Shown piece after piece: positions 6,345 through 53,648 of a stretch of DNA of 64,000 nt (the first letter of the stretch is position 1; the number at the start of each line of letters is the position of its first letter). Source of the stretch: Cytophagales bacterium (lineage in GTDB: Bacteria > Bacteroidota > Bacteroidia > Cytophagales > Spirosomataceae); the NCBI GenBank assembly GCA_013298025.1, contig JAAFJE010000004.1, forward strand, positions 178,528 to 242,527, in the 5' to 3' direction. The position numbers and the translations under genes are program-made. The notes under the pieces were generated by a model, which was given only the letters and a program-made list of their open reading frames with translations, made no database searches and was not told the DNA's origin.

Positions 6345-7346
6345 TTACAAACTACTTCTTTGTATCAAAACAAAAGGATTTTTTACCTGCATTGTTCGTT
6401 GTTCGAGCAGCAATTGGGCAAGCGTTTCGCCCATTTGTCTGAATTGGGTAGAAATCACTGTAATGCCCAAAATTTCGTTCAATACGGTTTCGTTGTAGGC
6501 GATAAGCCCCAAGTCTTTGCCCAGTGTCCAGTTTTTAGCCCTTGTTTTTTTGATAAATAAAGGCAAATCTGCCTCGTCGGTTACGACATAGCACACGCCT
6601 AATAGAAGTTCTTTTTGCTCGGTAATACGCTCCGAATGCACAATCGCTTTGGCATTTTCAGCCCCAAAACGCAAAGCTCCTTCGGCTATTTCAGGCGGAT
6701 GGTTCAGCAAGCGTGACATCACAATCTCGATGGTATGGTATTTGTCGAAAAGCTTTTTTACCGAAGAAAAGGCATGGTAAATATCGCCGTGAAAGTCCTG
6801 ATACACGCTCAGGGTATCGTTGAAATTTTCTACGCTTTTATCCAGCAAAACCAATTGTCGGGCAGGTATTTTGCGTAACGTTGCCTGAATACTTGCCAAA
6901 GGTGTAGCCAAATCGAAATGAGGCATTACAACGTAGTAATGGTAAGCACCCAAGTGGGTATCTATGATTTCGTTGAGTAGCTGTAGGTTGTAATGATGCA
7001 CCTGAATATCAACCTTAGCACTGCTGCTAAGAGTGCTGAGAAAGCCTTCGTAAATCAGGTTTTTGAAAGAAGAAATTTTATTGAAAATAAAGAGAATTTT
7101 GAGCCGTTGGTCTTTTCTGCCTACCACAAAATTGCCTACATTCGGTACAGCCCTGATATAGCCTTTGTCTTGTAGCTCTTTATATGCTTTTTCGATGGTA
7201 TCTCTCGAAAAATGAATGGCTTTACTCAACGACGTAATAGAAGGCAAAAGGGTATCTTTTGCTAAATTTCCATGCTCAATTTCTCTGATAATGGATTGCA
7301 CAACTTGCTCTTTTTTCGAGTTGCAGCCTTCCTGTATTTTAATCAT
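6345..7346 (-). CDS. GntR family regulator with sugar-binding C-terminal domain
   Basis: LLPSITSLSK...SRDTIEKAYKEL...G...VGNFV winged HTH; C-terminal periplasmic-binding-like domain. Confidence 0.88.
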   Translation of the reverse strand: MIKIQEGCNSKKEQVVQSIIREIEHGNLAKDTLLPSITSLSKAIHFSRDTIEKAYKELQDKGYIRAVPNVGNFVVGRKDQRLKILFIFNKISSFKNLIYEGFLSTLSSSAKVDIQVHHYNLQLLNEIIDTHLGAYHYYVVMPHFDLATPLASIQATLRKIPARQLVLLDKSVENFNDTLSVYQDFHGDIYHAFSSVKKLFDKYHTIEIVMSRLLNHPPEIAEGALRFGAENAKAIVHSERITEQKELLLGVCYVVTDEADLPLFIKKTRAKNWTLGKDLGLIAYNETVLNEILGITVISTQFRQMGETLAQLLLEQRTMQVKNPFVLIQRSSL

Positions 7347-40670: not shown

Positions 40671-40829
40671 GTATATAAACGGATTAAAGTTGCGAAGTAA
40701 CATTTGTATGGGTTGTATCAGCACTGGAATTTAGGTGAAATATGTTGTTTGATCAAAAATCTCTTGAAATAAGACGTTTTTCTTTTTACACAAAAGGCAT
40801 AAAGAAGGGCTGCCTTTGCAGACAGCCCA

Positions 40830-41210
40830 AAATAAGTCTATAAGCCGGATTCTGTCAATACTTCTGCGAAGTATCGTCTTATCATTTATCTCGACGCACC
40901 GTCACCGATACGCTCTATCAACCTACCCGCTGACATCGGACGAGCAGCCCTTTTTCAAAACATTGCTGTTTCTCTCGCCAGCCTATTTGGTCTTTCAACA
41001 CATGAGGTTTACCTCTGCCTCGTTTGTCACCAACCGAGCGGTAGGCTCTTACTCTACCTTTTCACCCTTACCTTTGCAGGCGGTAATTTTCTGTGGCACT
41101 GGCTGTCACAAGCTCGTCGCCAAGCTTGTGCCTTCCCGTTAGGAAGCATGTTGCTCTGTGTTGTCCAGACTTTCCTCCCTTGTTGCCAAAGGCGATAAGA
41201 CGACTTATTT
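40830..41210 (-). ncRNA. rnpB: RNase P RNA, class A
   Basis: Reverse strand contains GAGGAAAGTC near the 5' end and ACAGAATCCGGCTTAT at the 3' end; termini pair (AAATAAGTC / GACTTATTT); terminator-like hairpin follows at about 40807-40828. Confidence 0.95.
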
Positions 41211-41269
41211 CTTTGGTAAAGATAGCCGACTTTTTTGGAAAGAGCAAATCCTACTTGTTCCTTGGCTTT

Positions 41270-47759: not shown

Positions 47760-50729
47760 ATGAACAATTTTAAAAAAATCAATAACCTTACCGGTTGGGC
47801 TGTATTTTTGATTTCTTTCGTCGTTTTTGCTGCCACAGTAGAGCGAACAGCCTCTTTTTGGGATTGCGGTGAATTTATAGCCTGTGCTTACAAGCTGCAA
47901 GTTCCTCACCCTCCTGGTGCACCACTATTTTTATTATTGGGAAGAATGTTCTCGTTGTTGGCGGGTGCCGATAAAACACAAGTGGCTTATTGGGTAAATA
48001 TGCTATCGGTGGTTTCGAGTGCTTTTACCATTCTATTTATGCACTGGACAATCGTATTGATTGGTCGTAAAATTTTAAATAAAAGCTTTGAATCTTTGAG
48101 CCTTGCCGAAGCTATCAGCTTGTTGGGGGCTGGGGTTGTTGGGTCCTTGGCTTATGCTTTTACAGATACGTTTTGGTTCTCGGCTGTAGAGGCCGAAGTG
48201 TATGCCATGTCGTCGTTCTTTACGGCATTGGTTGTATGGGCAGCTTTCAAATGGGAGCTTATCGAAGACGAAGCCGCAGCTAACCGTTGGTTGGTTTTTA
48301 TCGCTTATATCGTGGGCTTGTCTATTGGTGTCCACTTGCTAAACTTGGTAACTGTACCTGCGTTGGCGTTATTATATTATTTCAAAAAATACCCTAAACC
48401 AACTTATCTGGGCGGTTTTATTGCTTTAACGGTAGGTTTATTCATCTTGGGTATCATCAACTCTGGTATTATTCCGGGTATTCCATCGATGGCATTTAGC
48501 TTTGAACTAGCCTTTGTCAATGAGCTTGGTATGCCTTATGGTTCGGGAGTTATCGTATTTTTGGTCTTGTTTATTGGACTCTTGGTAGGGGGCGTAGCTT
48601 ATTCTCAAGCTAAAAATAAGGTAGGCTTAAACATATCGCTGTTGGCTTTGTCTTTTGTCTTGATTGGCTATTTGTCTTACAATTTGGCCTTGGTTCGTTC
48701 TACTTACAACACCCCAATCAACGAAAATGACCCGAGCAATATCCTCAACTTTTTAAAGTATTTGCGTCGTGAGCAATACGGCGAACGCTCGTTGTTGTAT
48801 GGCCCTATTTTTACGGCAGAAGTAGAAAGCGTTGACGCTGGCGCCCCTGTCTATAAAATGAAAGATGGCAAATACGTGGTATATGACCACAAGCAAAAAG
48901 TAACCTACAGCAAAAATGGTCAAATGTTGTTGCCTCGTATCTACTCGAATGCACCACAACACGTGGCTCTTTACCGTGAAATGCTAGGCTTGGCAGAAGG
49001 TGAAACGCCTACATTTGGCGACAACCTCCGCTTTATGTTTACGCACCAAATGGGTCACATGTATATGCGTTATTTGCTTTGGAACTTCGTCGGACGAGAA
49101 AGCGATATTCAAGATGCAGGCGTGATAGATTATACACGGAAAGGTGCTTTACCCGAATTGCTCGCCAACAATAAAGCACACAATAATTACTTCTATTTGC
49201 CACTTATCTTGGGTTTACTAGGCTTTTTCTTATTGTATCGTAAAAATGAAAAAGACTTTTTAATTACGATTTTGATGTTTTTGATGACGGGCTTGGCACT
49301 GGTTATTTTCCTTAACTCGCCTCCAACAGAGCCTCGTGAGCGTGATTATATTTATGTGGGTTCGTTCTATTTCTTTGCTATTTGGATTGGCCTAGGCGTA
49401 ATGCAATTGGCCGAATGGTTGTTGAAACTCATCAAAAATCCTGTGTCAACGAGCTATGCCGCCACTGCGGTTTCGTTGGTGATTCCTGTGATTTTGATTC
49501 AACAAAACTGGGACGACCACGACCGCAATCACCGTTATCATCAGGTTGATTTTGCTAAAAATATGCTCAATTCTTGTGCCCCCAACGCTATTTTGTTTAC
49601 GGGTGGCGACAACGATACTTTCCCCTTGTGGTATGTGCAAGAAGTAGAAGGATTCCGTACCGATGTGCGTGTATGTAACCTTTCGTTGTTGGGTACAGAC
49701 TGGTACATCGAGCAAATGAAACGCAAAACGTATGAGTCGGAAGCTTTGCCTATTTCTTTAGATAAAGACCGTTTCTTGGAAGGTATCAACGACCAAATTT
49801 TATTCTACGAAAACCCTAATGTCAAAAATGGCATTAACCTCGAAGAATACATCAAATTGGTGAAAGATGATAACCCTGCTATCAAAGTGCCATTACAAGA
49901 TGGTACAATGATTAATACCTTGCCTTCTGAGAATGTTTTTGTGCCTGTGAATGTAGAAGAAATGAAAAAAGCTACTTTCATACCCGATGCCCTCAAACCA
50001 TATTTGATGGACCAAGTAAGTTGGTCGTTGGGCAAAGGTGGCTTGATGAAACCCGAATTGATTCAGTTGGATATTATTGCCCAAAATGCCAAAAATGGCT
50101 GGAAGCGTCCTATTTATTTCGCTACAACTTTGGCAAGCAGCAGCTACCTCAACATGAAAGAAATGATGCAGCTAGAAGGTTATGCGTATCGTTTGTTGCC
50201 AGTGAAACTGCCAGAAGCCAAAGAAGGTATTGTCAATACCGACATCATGTTTGATAACGTAACGAAGAAAATGTTCTGGAGAGATTTAGACAATCCAAAC
50301 ACGTACTATCATTCTGATTTTTACTTAGAAGTACCAGTGATTACGGCACGTTTGAGCTTCTTGCGTTTGGTGGACCAGTTGGTAAAAGAAGGTAAATTGG
50401 CGAAAGCAAAAGAAGCATTAGATTTTGAAATGAAGGTGATGCCCGACAAAACTATCCCTTACGACCAGCTTAGTGCCAATTTTGTATCGCTTTATTTAGC
50501 GGTAGGCGATAAGAAAAAGGCCTTGGAAATTGCTGATACCATGATGAACCGCAACGATAAAGCATTAACGTACTACCTGCAAGAACGCAGAGGAAGCGAT
50601 TCTCGTGAAATTCAAACGGCCTTGTATGAAATGCAAATCATTGTCAATGGGCTGAAAGAAGCAAAACTTCCCGAAGCAGCCAAGTACGAAGAGATGTTTA
50701 ATCGTCAGTACAATAAAGCTAGTTCATAA
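47760..50729 (+). CDS. DUF2723 (TMEM260-like) membrane glycosyltransferase
   Basis: WDCGEFIA, HPPGAPLF, FWFSAVEAEVY, GDNDTFPLWY. Confidence 0.9.
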   Translation: MNNFKKINNLTGWAVFLISFVVFAATVERTASFWDCGEFIACAYKLQVPHPPGAPLFLLLGRMFSLLAGADKTQVAYWVNMLSVVSSAFTILFMHWTIVLIGRKILNKSFESLSLAEAISLLGAGVVGSLAYAFTDTFWFSAVEAEVYAMSSFFTALVVWAAFKWELIEDEAAANRWLVFIAYIVGLSIGVHLLNLVTVPALALLYYFKKYPKPTYLGGFIALTVGLFILGIINSGIIPGIPSMAFSFELAFVNELGMPYGSGVIVFLVLFIGLLVGGVAYSQAKNKVGLNISLLALSFVLIGYLSYNLALVRSTYNTPINENDPSNILNFLKYLRREQYGERSLLYGPIFTAEVESVDAGAPVYKMKDGKYVVYDHKQKVTYSKNGQMLLPRIYSNAPQHVALYREMLGLAEGETPTFGDNLRFMFTHQMGHMYMRYLLWNFVGRESDIQDAGVIDYTRKGALPELLANNKAHNNYFYLPLILGLLGFFLLYRKNEKDFLITILMFLMTGLALVIFLNSPPTEPRERDYIYVGSFYFFAIWIGLGVMQLAEWLLKLIKNPVSTSYAATAVSLVIPVILIQQNWDDHDRNHRYHQVDFAKNMLNSCAPNAILFTGGDNDTFPLWYVQEVEGFRTDVRVCNLSLLGTDWYIEQMKRKTYESEALPISLDKDRFLEGINDQILFYENPNVKNGINLEEYIKLVKDDNPAIKVPLQDGTMINTLPSENVFVPVNVEEMKKATFIPDALKPYLMDQVSWSLGKGGLMKPELIQLDIIAQNAKNGWKRPIYFATTLASSSYLNMKEMMQLEGYAYRLLPVKLPEAKEGIVNTDIMFDNVTKKMFWRDLDNPNTYYHSDFYLEVPVITARLSFLRLVDQLVKEGKLAKAKEALDFEMKVMPDKTIPYDQLSANFVSLYLAVGDKKKALEIADTMMNRNDKALTYYLQERRGSDSREIQTALYEMQIIVNGLKEAKLPEAAKYEEMFNRQYNKASS

Positions 50730-50748
50730 TTTTACAGTTAATAAATGG

Positions 50749-50778
50749 AAAGGGGATGCAGCGATGCGTCCCTTTTTT
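50749..50778. terminator. bidirectional terminator
   Basis: AAAGGGGATGCA-GCGA-TGCGTCCCTTTTTT. Confidence 0.75.
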
Positions 50779-50779
50779 G

Positions 50780-50986
50780 TTAGCAGTCTAATACACTTTC
50801 GTCGGTAAGAATATGGTTTTGTAAAACCCATTCTTTCAATGCCTTCCGATGCTCATGCCGTACAATTACTTGTACTTTGGTTTGCCCTTCTTTTAAAATC
50901 AAAAAAGCCGTACTCAAAAACTTAGAATAGGTAATATAATAAACGTATTCTGCTCGATAAGGCATATTAAATGCTGTATGATTCAT
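50780..50986 (-). CDS. hypothetical 68-aa protein
   Basis: ATG after an AT-rich leader; ends right at the shared terminator; no recognisable motif. Confidence 0.4.
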   Translation of the reverse strand: MNHTAFNMPYRAEYVYYITYSKFLSTAFLILKEGQTKVQVIVRHEHRKALKEWVLQNHILTDESVLDC

Positions 50987-51384
50987 AAAAACAATAGCGT
51001 ATTTTTTAAAAAAAGGGATGATTGACGAATTTAGCTATTAATTGTTTTTGCTACAATAGTAATAGGTAAAAATACCAGAGATATTTCCTTGAATAGTATC
51101 AAACAAAAACATCCTCAGAAAGGTTATAAAAACGTTTCTGTACAAAAAACTACCGTTTACTTTTTTATCGGCTTCTTTTTTCTAAATTCTGGCGTACTTT
51201 ATACAATTTGGCATGAATATTGACCATTATTAGAAGTAACATATTTTTGTGTCCAAACAAGATACATCAGTATTTATTCTTTTTGTTTGTTTTTTTTGCA
51301 ATTCGTTAGTTTTTTTTGGAAAAAAGCTCAAAAAAAATAATAAAAAACTTGTTTGGCATATTTATTGTAAATAATTTTACAAGC

Positions 51385-51745
51385 AAGAACATATTCCGCC
51401 AAGCGTAGTTCAAACAGATACAACATAGATTCAATTACTATACTATCTTTCACTACTGCTTACAGCGAATACCTTCTTAAAGCTTTATATTACCGAGCAT
51501 CATCAGTTTCTGTCCGCCAAACAGAAATTCAAAATATAAAGGTTGGATTACAAAACTTACTTAGTTGTCAAATAATTTCGATAATAAAACCGCCATTTTA
51601 TTATCTATTTTATCAATAAGTAAACTACAGAGTTCAACAGTAAAGACATTCAAGTTACAACTTGTGGGTTAGGATTACCCAAAAGATAACTACTTAGGCG
51701 GATTGCGTAAAGGCTCGGAGCGTTGCTTCGGGTCTTTATTTATTG
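51385..51745 (+). ncRNA. candidate sRNA A (three CCGCCA motifs at or near hairpin loops)
   Basis: Promoter-like TAATTTTA at 51372-51379, no ATG seen on the + strand, terminator hairpin at 51709-51737 whose three G-U pairs favour the + strand. Confidence 0.5.
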
Positions 51746-51872
51746 ATATACCCAAAAAATTGTCCTCTTTTTTTTTCCTCTATTGCGTCAAAACCTTCCT
51801 TCGTGTAATTCTCAGAAAATTCCGATTCTTGTCTTTGTGTTGTTCTGTATAAAATACGTATGTTTGTACTAT

Positions 51873-52090
51873 CAATTACATCATATTTGTGGCGGCAAAG
51901 AAATGTAAAAGACCACACAATGGTATATATGGCTACCTTGTAGTGCTGTGGCGGCAGCTATGAAGTAACCCTATACGACCAGCCTAAGTAAAACTGAAAA
52001 CAATTAGCCTAAGTAAATTTGTAATCCTACAAACCAAGTAACTTAAACATTACTGCAAACCCTTGGAGTGGCGGCTTCGAGGGTTTTTGC
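51873..52090 (+). ncRNA. candidate sRNA B (three TGGCGG-loop hairpins)
   Basis: Consensus -7 box TATGTTTG at 51859-51866; three hairpins with the identical loop; the last is a terminator (52055-52090); only tiny ORFs (7 aa or less). Confidence 0.6.
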
Positions 52091-52301
52091 TTTATATGCC
52101 CGTCTGATTTTCTTCTTTTTCTCCCCCCCAATAGAAATTTCATTGTATTATTTCAAGATTGTTCAGAATTAACAGGATGGTGCATGATAGACATTTTTAG
52201 AGAATAAAGTTATTTTACAATAAATAGTACATATAATACAAGCATTGTCGTGTATTGCGACAATACGCCACTTTCCTCAAAGCATAATTTACTAGACGTT
52301 C

Positions 52302-53648
52302 ATGGAACACACAATACTCAACAGAAGAGATTTTTTACAACAAGCTACGCTTGCCGCTGCTGGTGTAGCCCTCAGTACCATTCCCGACGTACTAGGAGCA
52401 ACCGCTACCAAACGTAAAGTGGCTATGGTTGGTACAGGTCACAGAGGCACAGGTATGTGGGGTACGCCTGTTGTACACGAGTTTAGTGACGTAATCGAAT
52501 TTGTGGGTTTGTGTGATGCGAACATTGGTAGAGCCGAAACTGCCAAAAAAATGCTGGGCGTTACTTGTGCTGTATATACCGATTTTGAAAAAATGATGCG
52601 TGAAACCAAACCCGATTTACTCATTGTAACAACGGTAGATGCTACGCACGATAAATTTATCATCAAAGGAATGGAAATGGGTGCAGATATTATCACTGAG
52701 AAACCCATGACTACCGATGAAGGCAAATGTCAAGCCATTTTAGATGCTGAAAAAAGAACAGGCAAGAAAGTAACCGTTACGTTCAATTACCGCTATTCGC
52801 CGCATCGTCAAAAAATATACGAATTGTTGCGTGCAGGAGCTATTGGCAAGGTTACGTCGGTCGATTTTCACTGGTATTTAGATACACGCCACGGAGCAGA
52901 TTATTTCCGCCGTTGGCATCGACTCAAAGAAAACTCTGGGTCGCTTTGGGTGCACAAGGCTAGTCACCATTTTGATTTATTGAACTGGTGGCTCGAATCG
53001 GAACCAGCTTCGGTATATGCCCAAGCTGCCCTAGAGCATTATGGTAAAAACGGGACTGTACGAGGCAAAAACTGTCGTACCTGCGACCACAAAGCGACGT
53101 GTCCGTTTTATTGGGACATCACCAAAGACAATCGTTTGGTAAACCTTTACGTCAATAACGAACAACACGACGGCTATTTGAGAGATGGCTGCGTATTTAA
53201 AGAAGACATCAATATTTACGATAAAATGGCGGCAACCATTCAGTATGCCAATGGCGTAAATGTGAGTTATTCGCTTACAACCTATTCACCTTATGAAGGG
53301 TATCGCATTGCCTTCAATGGTACACAAGGAAGACTAGAGGCTTGGATAAAAGAAACAGGTCAAATGACTATTGAGCCTTATGACGAACTGATGCTTGCGA
53401 AAAACTTTGGTGCAGTAGAGTATATTAAAATCCCACAGGCCGAAGGGCATGGCGGCGGCGACGCTCGATTGAGAGATAAAATTTTTAGAAACCCCAATAG
53501 TGCCGATACTTTCCGTCAATCGGCTGGCAGTAGAGATGGTGCTATGGCCATTTTGGTTGGCATTGCAGCCCGTAAAAGTGCCGAAACAGGACAGTCCATT
53601 AAGATTGCCGACCTTACCGATTTGAAGCCTAGAGCTATTAAGGCATAA
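52302..53648 (+). CDS. Gfo/Idh/MocA oxidoreductase with Tat-like signal
   Basis: LNRRDFLQ, MVGTGHRG, TEKPM, HKASHHFD, GHGGGD. Confidence 0.9.
   Translation: MEHTILNRRDFLQQATLAAAGVALSTIPDVLGATATKRKVAMVGTGHRGTGMWGTPVVHEFSDVIEFVGLCDANIGRAETAKKMLGVTCAVYTDFEKMMRETKPDLLIVTTVDATHDKFIIKGMEMGADIITEKPMTTDEGKCQAILDAEKRTGKKVTVTFNYRYSPHRQKIYELLRAGAIGKVTSVDFHWYLDTRHGADYFRRWHRLKENSGSLWVHKASHHFDLLNWWLESEPASVYAQAALEHYGKNGTVRGKNCRTCDHKATCPFYWDITKDNRLVNLYVNNEQHDGYLRDGCVFKEDINIYDKMAATIQYANGVNVSYSLTTYSPYEGYRIAFNGTQGRLEAWIKETGQMTIEPYDELMLAKNFGAVEYIKIPQAEGHGGGDARLRDKIFRNPNSADTFRQSAGSRDGAMAILVGIAARKSAETGQSIKIADLTDLKPRAIKA

What the first reader, a model, noticed from the sequence alone, without database searches (positions are those of the whole stretch)
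51859..52090. Candidate sRNA B with three hairpins sharing the loop TGGCGG
Seen: a consensus promoter box TATGTTTG (51859-51866), then TTTG-[TGGCGG]-CAAA (loop 51890-51895), GCTG-[TGGCGG]-CAGC (51949-51954) and a terminator whose loop is again TGGCGG (52069-52074). The stems differ while the loops are identical, which suggests selection on the loop. A 12-nt direct repeat AGCCTAAGTAAA lies at 51981-51992 and 52006-52017. Known: repeated loop motifs are the design of protein-sequestering RNAs such as CsrB/RsmY (GGA loops) and of kissing-loop antisense RNAs. I do not recognise this motif from any described family.
Basis: partly seen in the sequence, partly recalled or inferred. Interest (0 to 1): 0.7.

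Follow-up and report, generated by a model that had tools for sequence, protein, structure and literature searches.

The report
Small RNA with three identical hairpin tips
This is a real, abundant and strongly conserved non-coding RNA of about 220 bases from a freshwater Flectobacillus-like bacterium; its three hairpins carry the same eight-base tip, it belongs to no described RNA family, and it probably pairs with a structured RNA encoded beside it.

Summary
TATGTTTG, the three TGGCGG hairpins, the terminator and the 12-nt repeat all sit at the stated coordinates. TGGCGG/CCGCCA occurs 6 times in this AT-rich spacer against 0.08 expected.

"sRNA B" (~51871-52092, + strand) is real:
- Contigs covering only B occur in at least 7 metatranscriptomes (depth up to 204), while flanking genes read about 0.
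- A related strain differs at 3 of 222 B positions, against 20-38% at four-fold sites of neighbouring genes.
- Homologues exist in Flectobacillus roseus and a Flectobacillus MAG. Only five blocks are conserved there: the three tips (GUGGCGGC), UAGCCUAAGUAA and GUAAUCCU.

The 12-nt repeat, however, is a lineage-specific duplication. No Rfam family matches.

The adjacent structured RNA A (~51381-51750, + strand) stays linked to B in both lineages. It carries the complements: CCGC-starting hairpin loops, and GGAUUAC...UACUUAGGC in its invariant 3' module.

Best reading (about 0.42): B is a stand-alone base-pairing RNA that binds RNA A at several sites, much as the G-rich sponge RosA binds RoxS. 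Because the tips are invariant while A's loops drift, a protein-binding role remains a serious rival.

The parts
51798..51826 (+). Conserved box upstream of the B promoter (CCTTCGTGTAATTCTCAGAAAATTCCGA). Candidate regulator binding site.
   Evidence: No substitutions against L082 across 51783-51826. A similar box lies at the end of L210 and upstream of B in L211 and L212. Its function is inferred only.
51859..51866 (+). -7 promoter box TATGTTTG (Bacteroidota TAnnTTTG type). A TTTG also lies at 51834-37, 21 nt upstream.
   Evidence: Exact TAnnTTTG match. Unchanged in all strain variants. It aligns with TAACTTTG in both Flectobacillus homologues. The upstream TTTG reads TGTG in L082, so it is not required.
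51871..52092 (+). sRNA B, about 220 nt. The 5' end is inferred from the promoter; the 3' end is the U-tract after the terminator.
   Evidence: RNA contigs span 51882/85/88-93 to 52004/31/38/48/73 in X8, X12 and X21-X25. All 6 adapter junctions share one orientation. Only 3 of 222 positions differ in L082, against 20-38% at four-fold sites.
51876..51908 (+). Hairpin 1: UUACAU/AUGUAA outer stem, UUUG/CAAA inner stem, tip GUGGCGGC at 51889-51896.
   Evidence: Predicted fold. In Flectobacillus the outer stem is UUCAC/GUGAA and the inner stem UUG/CAA, with the same tip.
51921..51981 (+). Hairpin 2: long imperfect hairpin of about 60 nt, tip GUGGCGGC at 51948-51955.
   Evidence: Predicted fold. Flectobacillus has a 60-nt AU-rich hairpin with unrelated stem sequence and the same CUGUGGCGGCAG tip. 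Pair 51945-51958 is G-C here, A-U in L211 and G.U in L212.
51981..51992 (+). First copy of AGCCUAAGUAAA. A duplication specific to this lineage.
   Evidence: Absent from the Flectobacillus homologues, which show a 15-nt gap here.
52005..52016 (+). Conserved linear block UAGCCUAAGUAA. Complementary to UACUUAGGC in RNA A (51691-51699).
   Evidence: One of only five identity runs of 7 nt or more between the window and L211. The exact 9-mer GCCTAAGTA occurs only 3 times in the 64-kb window: twice in B and once, reverse-complemented, in A.
52021..52028 (+). Conserved linear block GUAAUCCU. Complementary to (A)GGAUUAC in RNA A (51671-51678, and a second copy at 51545-51551).
   Evidence: Conserved run. 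Complementary matches listed (I22).
52057..52092 (+). Intrinsic terminator AAACCCUUGGAG-UGGCGG-CUUCGAGGGUUU plus U-tract. Third tip GUGGCGGC at 52068-52075.
   Evidence: Terminator scan. The 29-nt run 52057-52085 is identical in Flectobacillus. The G.U pairs form only on the + strand.
51381..51750 (+). RNA A, the proposed partner: a structured RNA of about 370 nt. It has CCGCCA at 51396-401, CCGCCA(A) hairpin loops at 51507-51527 and 51581-51604, a conserved 3' module at 51666-51712, and a terminator at 51707-51745.
   Evidence: RNA contigs span 51262-51753. MFE z is -4.6. Homologues L210, L211 and L212 were found. The terminator changes G.U to A-U and U.G to U-A, which fits the + strand only.

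Best explanation
B is a free-standing, regulated, non-coding RNA. It is transcribed from its own Bacteroidota sigma-A-type promoter and ended by an intrinsic terminator.

Its functional surface has two parts. The first is three identical hairpin tips, G-U-[GGCG]-G-C. The second is an unpaired stretch, UAGCCUAAGUAA-N-GUAAUCCU.

The most likely mechanism is RNA-RNA pairing with the neighbouring structured RNA A.
- The linear stretch forms an interrupted antiparallel duplex (9 + 7 bp) with A's invariant 3' module, GGAUUAC-N12-UACUUAGGC.
- The G-rich tips can kiss A's CCGC-starting hairpin loops, with 6 bp in this lineage and 4-6 bp in Flectobacillus.
- In this lineage they can also reach the CCGCCA strand of A's closing helix.

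Binding would titrate or remodel A, or A would do so to B. This is a sponge/antagonist pair.

Shown: transcription, strand, boundaries, purifying selection, conservation of exactly these elements, and conserved linkage and complementarity with A.

Inferred: that the two RNAs meet in the cell, and what follows from it.
For: Transcript
- Contigs covering only B occur in X8, X12 and X21-X25, at depth up to 204, with the flanks at 0.
- All six adapter junctions are in one orientation: read-2 adapter on the left, read-1 on the right. With the common dUTP libraries this means a + strand RNA.

Selection
- B differs from L082 at 3 of 222 positions. Four-fold sites differ at 39/190 and 184/480 (Fisher p 2e-28). 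The downstream spacer differs at 18/209.
- Further strains add only 51871, 51996 and one low-depth deletion.

Homologues
- L211 and L212 are 64% identical to the window.
- The only identity runs of 7 nt or more are the three tips, UAGCCUAAGUAA and GUAAUCCU.
- They show the same three-hairpin architecture, z -3.9 and -2.9.

Partner
- RNA A is expressed and structured (z -4.6, -6.9 and -6.1).
- A lies on the + strand. Its terminator has G.U pairs and compensations that fit only the + strand.
- A stays linked to B: adjacent here, and flanking one amidohydrolase gene in Flectobacillus.
- A carries 3 CCGCCA sites, two of them in fully accessible loops.
- GCCUAAGUA and GUAAUCC are complementary to A's 3' module in all three A-B pairs, in the order an antiparallel duplex requires.
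- In the window pair, shared complementary 7-mers number 20 against 6.5 expected (P = 0.001).
- The only strain change inside the extra complementary stretch (51554 A>G) turns A-U into G.U.

Precedent
- RosA is a stand-alone RNA of about 229 nt with three G-rich regions. It sponges the C-rich sRNAs RoxS and FsrA. RsaI behaves likewise (PMC8216469).
Against: - There is no direct evidence of an interaction.
- Energy-based and Smith-Waterman tests of A-B pairing do not beat shuffles. The Flectobacillus pairs show no global excess of complementary 7-mers (P 0.4 and 0.1). The case therefore rests on which blocks are conserved, not on overall complementarity.
- A's loops drift (CCGCCA, CCGCUA, CCGCACA) while B's tips stay UGGCGG. 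There is no co-variation, so A alone cannot explain the invariant tips.
- A's UACUUAGGC lies inside A's own predicted long-range helix (unpaired probability about 0.01) and would have to be opened.
- The complementarity could be a relic of an inverted duplication.
- Only three distinct B sequences are known.
Confidence: 0.42

Rival explanations
1. Protein-binding or protein-sequestering RNA. The three identical tips G-U-[GGCG]-G-C are sequence-specific binding sites for an RNA-binding protein. B titrates that protein or delivers it, in the manner of CsrB, though not as a CsrB homologue.
For: All 24 tip nucleotides are invariant between two lineages, while every stem and spacer changes. The complementary loops of RNA A are not invariant. 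This is what a protein contact predicts and a drifting RNA partner does not. The tips are presented on stems of very different length, as in multi-site decoy RNAs. B is very abundant (depth 204).
Against: No candidate protein is known. The loops carry no GGA motif, and Bacteroidota are reported to lack CsrA and Hfq (abstract of PMC13370968). This reading does not explain the conserved linear blocks or their complementarity to RNA A. One tip is inside the terminator, which may be conserved for termination alone.
Confidence: 0.25
2. An ordinary mRNA-targeting sRNA. The unpaired UAGCCUAAGUAA/GUAAUCCU stretch, the G-rich tips, or both act as seeds that pair with mRNAs elsewhere in the genome. RNA A is either one target among many or irrelevant.
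For: B has the typical architecture: its own promoter, an accessible conserved stretch and a terminator. Bacteroidota sRNAs such as GibS and FopS work this way on susC-type mRNAs (PMC11697453). Redundant loop motifs are used as seeds by C-rich Firmicute sRNAs.
Against: None of the 43 translation start regions in the window contains CCGCCA or the anti-seed. The adjacent oxidoreductase, susC and susD starts score at or below the median in a duplex scan. Only 64 kb of the genome could be searched, so this evidence is weak.
Confidence: 0.2
3. Cis-acting leader or attenuator of the downstream Gfo/Idh/MocA-susC-susD operon. The abundant short RNA would be its terminated form.
For: B lies 210 nt upstream of the operon on the same strand and ends in a terminator.
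Against: In Flectobacillus, B lies downstream of an amidohydrolase gene and faces a convergent gene, not a PUL. Orthologous oxidoreductase genes in another genus keep their own conserved upstream block (52142-52248) without B. The spacer between B and the gene evolves six times faster than B.
Confidence: 0.03
4. A DNA-level element. The six TGGCGG copies, three on each strand in rough mirror symmetry around 51745, would be binding sites for a DNA-binding protein, or remnants of an inverted duplication or mobile element.
For: The copies are segregated by strand, with roughly symmetric spacing (-346, -228, -152 and +148, +207, +327). The region sits at a synteny break at 51156.
Against: Both halves are abundant RNAs with promoters and terminators. 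The motifs sit at hairpin tips whose stems change while the hairpins persist, including a G-C / A-U / G.U exchange at one stem pair. In Flectobacillus the two halves are separated by a 1.6-kb gene. No phage match was found.
Confidence: 0.03

Closest known systems
RosA (B. subtilis) and RsaI (S. aureus): G-rich sponge RNAs of the C-rich sRNAs RoxS/FsrA and RsaG/RsaD/RsaE (PMC8216469)
   Same: A stand-alone sigma-A-type gene with a Rho-independent terminator, about 220-230 nt long. It has several (three or two) G-rich sites complementary to C-rich loops of another small RNA. The partner RNA exposes its C-rich motifs in hairpin loops.
   Different: There is no sequence or Rfam relationship, and the phylum differs (Bacteroidota). 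B's G-rich sites are identical 8-mers at hairpin tips, not single-stranded G-tracts. The partner A is a structured RNA of 340-420 nt rather than a short sRNA, and is encoded next to B. The interaction is only predicted.
CsrB/RsmY/RsmZ protein-sequestering RNAs
   Same: The same short motif is repeated at the tips of several hairpins with unrelated stems. The RNA is highly abundant.
   Different: The motif is UGGCGG, not (A)NGGA. There are only three copies. No CsrA is known in this phylum, there is no Rfam match, and protein binding has not been tested.
Kissing-loop antisense RNAs (ColE1 RNA I/RNA II, R1 CopA/CopT)
   Same: Several hairpin loops in one RNA are complementary to several hairpin loops in another: UGGCGG against CCGCCA, 5 of 6 pairs G-C.
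   Different: A and B do not overlap and lie on the same strand, so the complementarity is not a by-product of antisense transcription. The element is chromosomal, with no plasmid or replicon context. The loop complementarity degrades to 4-6 bp in Flectobacillus.
C-rich multi-loop sRNAs (RsaE/RoxS, LhrC, RNAIII) and the Bacteroides sRNAs GibS/FopS (PMC11697453)
   Same: Redundant copies of a short motif, or an accessible seed followed by a terminator. Expression does not depend on Hfq.
   Different: B's motif is G-rich, not C-rich. It has no single-stranded 5' seed of the FopS type. The FopS model scores 20.6 bits against a threshold of 56, and only at another position, 50737-50781.

Membership tests
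Any Rfam 15 family | Covariance-model score at or above the family's gathering threshold | tested here: not met
   The only hit in the whole window at gathering threshold is RNase P at 40825-41211. Permissive scans of 50700-52400 and of B alone give only chance-level hits: best in B are rli27 at 21.9 bits against 55, BTnc060 at 15.8 against 229, and His_leader at 15.6 against 49.
CsrB/Rsm-type sequestering RNA | Multiple GGA / ANGGA motifs exposed in hairpin loops | tested here: not met
   The loops are UGGCGG or GGCG and contain no GGA.
CsrB/Rsm-type sequestering RNA | A cognate CsrA/RsmA protein in the genome, with binding shown | not testable with these tools
   Only 64 kb of the genome is available. 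Bacteroides are reported to lack CsrA and Hfq (abstract of PMC13370968).
Sponge RNA of RosA/RsaI type (functional class, not a homology family) | A stand-alone transcription unit with its own promoter and terminator | tested here: met
   The TAnnTTTG box is conserved in homologues. A terminator is present. RNA contigs are confined to B.
Sponge RNA of RosA/RsaI type (functional class) | Several sites complementary to the functional motifs of a partner small RNA, conserved across species | tested here: inconclusive
   Two linear blocks are complementary to A's invariant 3' module in all three pairs. The tips are fully complementary to A's loops only in the window lineage; Flectobacillus A has CCGCUA and CCGCACA. 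Global pairing statistics do not beat shuffles.
Sponge RNA of RosA/RsaI type (functional class) | Physical interaction with the partner and an effect on its stability or activity | not testable with these tools
   This needs EMSA, cross-linking and genetics.
Cis-antisense kissing-loop RNA (RNA I, CopA) | Transcribed from the strand opposite its target, overlapping it | tested here: not met
   A (51381-51750) and B (51871-52092) are both on the + strand and do not overlap.
FopS/GibS sRNAs of Bacteroides | Rfam model RF04319, with a single-stranded R1 seed at the 5' end followed by a terminator | tested here: not met
   No hit falls in B. A 20.6-bit hit (threshold 56) lies at 50737-50781, the terminator of the upstream gene. 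B starts with a hairpin.
6S RNA | A rod-like closing stem, central bubble and terminal stem, with an Rfam 6S or 6S-Flavo match | tested here: not met
   No Rfam match. The predicted fold is three separate hairpins.
Riboswitch or leader of the downstream operon | Conserved position directly upstream of the regulated gene across species | tested here: not met
   The downstream neighbour differs between lineages, and orthologous oxidoreductase genes lack B.

The most novel reading that the evidence does not exclude
B and A form a dedicated two-RNA regulatory module in a phylum without Hfq, ProQ or CsrA. B's three invariant G-U-[GGCG]-G-C tips would be the recognition element of an as yet unknown RNA-binding protein, or a tertiary docking motif. 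Through them, and by strand invasion of A's closing helix, B would switch the large structured RNA A between two conformations. The pair would then work as an RNA-controlled RNA switch, not as a simple sponge.
Probability: 0.15. Interest if true: 0.8.

Novelty: new member of a known kind. Interest (0 to 1): 0.58.

Why it matters
Very little is known about regulatory RNAs in Bacteroidota outside gut Bacteroides, and the phylum lacks the classical chaperones Hfq and CsrA.

This finding gives an undescribed pair of RNAs that meets several useful conditions:
- The RNAs are abundant enough to assemble from lake and river metatranscriptomes.
- They are under very strong purifying selection.
- They have a simple, testable design: three identical hairpin tips plus two conserved linear blocks.
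- They occur in a cultured species, Flectobacillus roseus LMG 24501, so genetics and biochemistry are possible.

If the A-B interaction is real, RNA-sponge logic of the RosA/RoxS kind extends to a new phylum. If the tips instead bind a protein, they could lead to a missing global RNA-binding regulator of Bacteroidota.

Tried and rejected
- **blastn against related loci.** I ran A and B against 80 Spirosomataceae loci fetched through the upstream TMEM260-like/DUF2723 gene. It found nothing, because that gene is not syntenic with the RNAs.
- **Triple-tip pattern.** GTGGCGGC-N-GTGGCGGC-N-GTGGCGGC was tried on viral contigs as a specificity test. It gave more than 120 unrelated GC-rich hits, so the pattern is useless for large collections. 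L089-L168 are junk loci.
- **The single metagenome scan.** I spent it on A's 3' module. It gave only L209 (the same contig as L082) and L210. That hit led to Flectobacillus through the neighbouring amidohydrolase.
- **Other amidohydrolase loci.** L213-L220, including Arcicella, carry neither A nor B.
- **Whole-length RNAduplex.** It gave meaningless global duplexes.
- **Windowed duplex energy and Smith-Waterman pairing scores.** A-B was indistinguishable from shuffles.
- **RNAalifold on the MAFFT alignment.** It is unreliable because MAFFT shifts hairpin 2 by 3 nt. I read compensations by hand instead.
- **My prediction of co-varying tips.** I expected Flectobacillus B to have UAGCGG tips matching its CCGCUA loops in A. 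This was refuted.
- **The TATTTTTG box at 51242-49 as A's promoter.** It is not conserved in related strains.
- **Coding potential.** Rejected. The ORFs overlapping B run into variable or frameshifted flanks.
- **tRNA or tmRNA.** None in the window.
- **Phage origin.** No match.

Full report
**1. What is there**

The finding lies in a 1.57-kb spacer with no credible ORF. Upstream is a TMEM260-like/DUF2723 gene (47760-50729). Downstream is a Gfo/Idh/MocA oxidoreductase (52302-53648), followed by susC and susD.

The organism is an uncultured freshwater member of the Spirosomataceae (Cytophagales). Its nearest sequenced genus is Flectobacillus, at 84-85% amino-acid identity in the upstream protein.

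The repeated unit is in fact the 8-mer GTGGCGGC in all three hairpins. TGGCGG/CCGCCA occurs 6 times in 51156-52301 against 0.083 expected, with a maximum of 2 in 5000 shuffles. Six of the seven intergenic copies in the window lie here.

**2. It is transcribed, on the + strand, as a discrete RNA**

Public metatranscriptomes were laid on the region.
- In X21-X24 the only contigs within 1.2 kb cover 51882/85/93 to 52031/38/73. Depth reaches 204, with zero on either side.
- X8, X12 and X25 give 51888-98 to 52004-48.
- Flanking genes read 0-2.

Six contig ends still carry Illumina adapters. The read-2 adapter is always on the left (51889, 51891, 51898) and the reverse-complemented read-1 adapter always on the right (52004 twice, 52031). 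For the usual dUTP-stranded libraries this means a + strand RNA. That step is an inference about library type.

The strand agrees with three other observations:
- the TAnnTTTG box at 51859-66;
- a terminator whose G.U pairs form only on the + strand;
- the aligned TAACTTTG box in the homologues.

The exact 5' end has not been mapped. Ends recur in or just after tip 1, and at 52004 in two independent studies. These may be processing sites or fragmentation bias at unpaired positions.

**3. It is under strong purifying selection**

L082 is a metagenome contig from a related strain (oxidoreductase 98% identical). It shares the region from window position 51156 onward but has different genes upstream.

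| Region compared with L082 | Differences |
|---|---|
| Four-fold degenerate sites, oxidoreductase | 39/190 (20.5%) |
| Four-fold degenerate sites, susC | 184/480 (38%) |
| Spacer 52093-52301 | 18/209 (8.6%) |
| sRNA B | 3/222 |

The three B changes are 51910, 51921 and 51976. The first and third are predicted unpaired; 51921 is the outermost base of hairpin 2, so T>C loses only that terminal U-A pair. The contrast with four-fold sites gives Fisher p = 2e-28.

Other strains add only 51871 A>G, 51996 G>A and one low-depth single-base deletion in tip 1. No ORF explains this conservation.

**4. Homologues show the tips are the conserved part**

No Rfam family matches. A pattern search on the conserved end of the neighbouring RNA found contig L210. 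Its amidohydrolase gene led to Flectobacillus roseus (L211) and a Flectobacillus MAG (L212). Both carry a B homologue.

Window B and F. roseus B are 64% identical. The only identity runs of 7 nt or more are these five:
- TGTGGCGGC, tip 1;
- CTGTGGCGGCAG, tip 2;
- TAGCCTAAGTAA;
- GTAATCCT;
- the terminator, which contains tip 3.

The stems differ but still pair.
- Hairpin 1 outer stem is UUACAU/AUGUAA here and UUCAC/GUGAA in Flectobacillus.
- Hairpin 2 is a hairpin of about 60 nt with unrelated stem sequence.
- The pair below the GUGGCGGC tip of hairpin 2 is G-C here, A-U in L211 and G.U in L212.

The homologues fold into the same three-hairpin layout, with z -3.9 and -2.9.

The 12-nt direct repeat does not hold up as a conserved feature. 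Flectobacillus has one copy, and the first copy here lies in a lineage-specific insertion.

**5. The neighbour, RNA A**

The stretch 51262-51753 is also present in metatranscriptomes, in runs that only partly overlap those holding B.

It lies on the + strand, on these grounds:
- its terminator (51707-51739 plus a T-tract) has G.U pairs;
- paralogue-like and homologous copies change G.U to A-U (51713) and U.G to U-A;
- no TAnnTTTG box exists on the minus strand.

Homologues in L210, L211 and L212 share an upstream TTTGGCAY-N5-TTG box and a 3' module. The module reads GGGU(U)AGGAUUACCC-AAAAGAUAAC-UACUUAGGCGGAUUGCG, followed by the terminator. The middle 250 nt is unrelated between homologues.

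All fold far better than shuffles, with z -4.6, -6.9 and -6.1. In each MFE the 3' GGCGG is engaged in a long-range helix with a CCGC-containing segment.

Each homologue has two internal hairpins on unrelated stems whose loops start with CCGC:
- CCGCCAA and CCGCCA in the window;
- CCGCUA twice in L210;
- CCGCACA and CCGCUA in L211.

A and B stay linked. They are adjacent here. In Flectobacillus they flank a single amidohydrolase gene, and L210 ends inside B's conserved upstream box.

**6. Complementarity between A and B**

B's two conserved linear blocks are the reverse complement of two parts of A's invariant 3' module. GCCUAAGUA pairs with UACUUAGGC, and GUAAUCC pairs with GGAUUAC. This holds in all three A-B pairs, and the order is the one an antiparallel interrupted duplex requires.

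In the window lineage A holds a second and better copy, 51545-51564, giving 10 + 8 bp with B 52007-52027. There the loops are exactly CCGCCA, fully complementary to UGGCGG. Both loops are predicted fully accessible. Shared complementary 7-mers number 20 against 6.5 expected (P = 0.001).

These points cut the other way:
- duplex-energy and alignment scores do not beat shuffles;
- the Flectobacillus pairs show no global excess;
- A's UACUUAGGC is buried in A's own helix;
- my prediction that Flectobacillus B would carry UAGCGG tips to match CCGCUA failed.

The tips are invariant while A's loops drift. Something besides A must therefore constrain them.

**7. Interpretation**

Firm (about 0.9): B is a genuine, independently transcribed, functional non-coding RNA. 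It belongs to a new family so far confined to Flectobacillus and a sister lineage.

Most likely mechanism (about 0.42): multi-site pairing with RNA A. [quoted passage not shown] The resemblance is functional, not a claim of homology.

Rivals:
- a protein-binding or sequestering RNA that uses the three identical tips (about 0.25);
- an ordinary mRNA-targeting sRNA (about 0.2). No target was found in the window, but only 64 kb could be searched;
- a cis leader of the PUL, or a DNA-level element. Both are largely excluded because the flanking genes change between lineages and the RNAs are expressed.

**8. Novelty**

B is not in Rfam, and no paper describing it turned up in five literature searches, two of which looked for small RNAs of this bacterial group. 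It is a new member of a known kind, the bacterial trans-acting small RNA with redundant loop motifs.

Three things set it apart. The hairpin tip is invariant and G-rich. The candidate partner is large, structured and genetically linked. The phylum lacks the classical RNA chaperones. The presence of both RNAs in cultured F. roseus makes the question directly testable.

Noticed in passing
window 51207-51750 (+); homologues L210 8290-8815, L211 4400-4835, L212 4414-4842: RNA A is itself an undescribed, highly structured RNA family (z -4.6 to -6.9) with no Rfam hit. It has a conserved 3' module, two hairpins with CCGC-starting loops on unrelated stems, and a long-range GGCGG:CCGC helix. A 69-nt piece of it (51672-51740), about 97% identical, appears in RNA-seq runs labelled with unrelated host organisms (X40, X41).
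   Followed up: partly
window 51207-51223 and 51352-51379: Two tandem copies of TTTGGCAY-N5-TTG are conserved in L082, L210, L211 and L212. They fit a sigma-54 -24/-12 box (TGGCAC-N5-TTGC) except for the final C. The second copy also reads as TTTG-N16-TAnnTTTG, which is exact in L210 and L211 and 7 of 8 here. Which sigma factor drives RNA A is undecided.
   Followed up: partly
window 51798-51826; L210 10724-10750; L211 ~6778-6806: A conserved box of about 25 nt (CCTTCGTGTAATTCTCAGAAAATTC) lies 35-60 nt upstream of B's -7 box. It is partly palindromic (AATTCTCAGAAAATT) and is a likely regulator binding site.
   Followed up: no
window 51156: Synteny breaks here. L082 and the strain contigs in X5 and X10 share sequence only to the right of 51156. 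To the left they carry other genes, including an AAA_15/AAA_21 (AbiEii-like) ATPase and a 160-aa protein of unknown function.
   Followed up: partly
window 51889-51898, 52004, 52031: Fragment ends joined to adapters recur in independent metatranscriptomes. 5' ends lie in or just after tip 1, and a 3' end at 52004 appears in two studies. These could be processing sites or fragmentation bias at unpaired positions.
   Followed up: no
window 51280-51893 (run X15): One RNA contig runs through A's terminator and the spacer and stops inside tip 1 of B. This suggests read-through from A into B in that sample or strain.
   Followed up: no
window 52142-52264: Blocks upstream of the oxidoreductase gene (AACAGGATGGTGCATGAT and GTTATTTTACAATAAATA) are conserved in another genus (L086-L088). 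They are probably the gene's own promoter or operator. A palindrome ATTGTCG-N7-CGACAAT (52244-52264) is seen only in this lineage.
   Followed up: partly
window 40825-41211 (-): Bacterial RNase P RNA class A (251.7 bits, E 8.6e-81).
   Followed up: yes
whole window: TGGCGG is 2.3-fold over-represented across the window (50 against 22 expected). Most copies are on the + strand inside genes, so this is a codon or composition effect unrelated to the RNA motif.
   Followed up: partly
window 50783-50986 (-): A 68-aa ORF in the left part of the spacer has no Pfam match. It lies in the part not shared with L082.
   Followed up: partly
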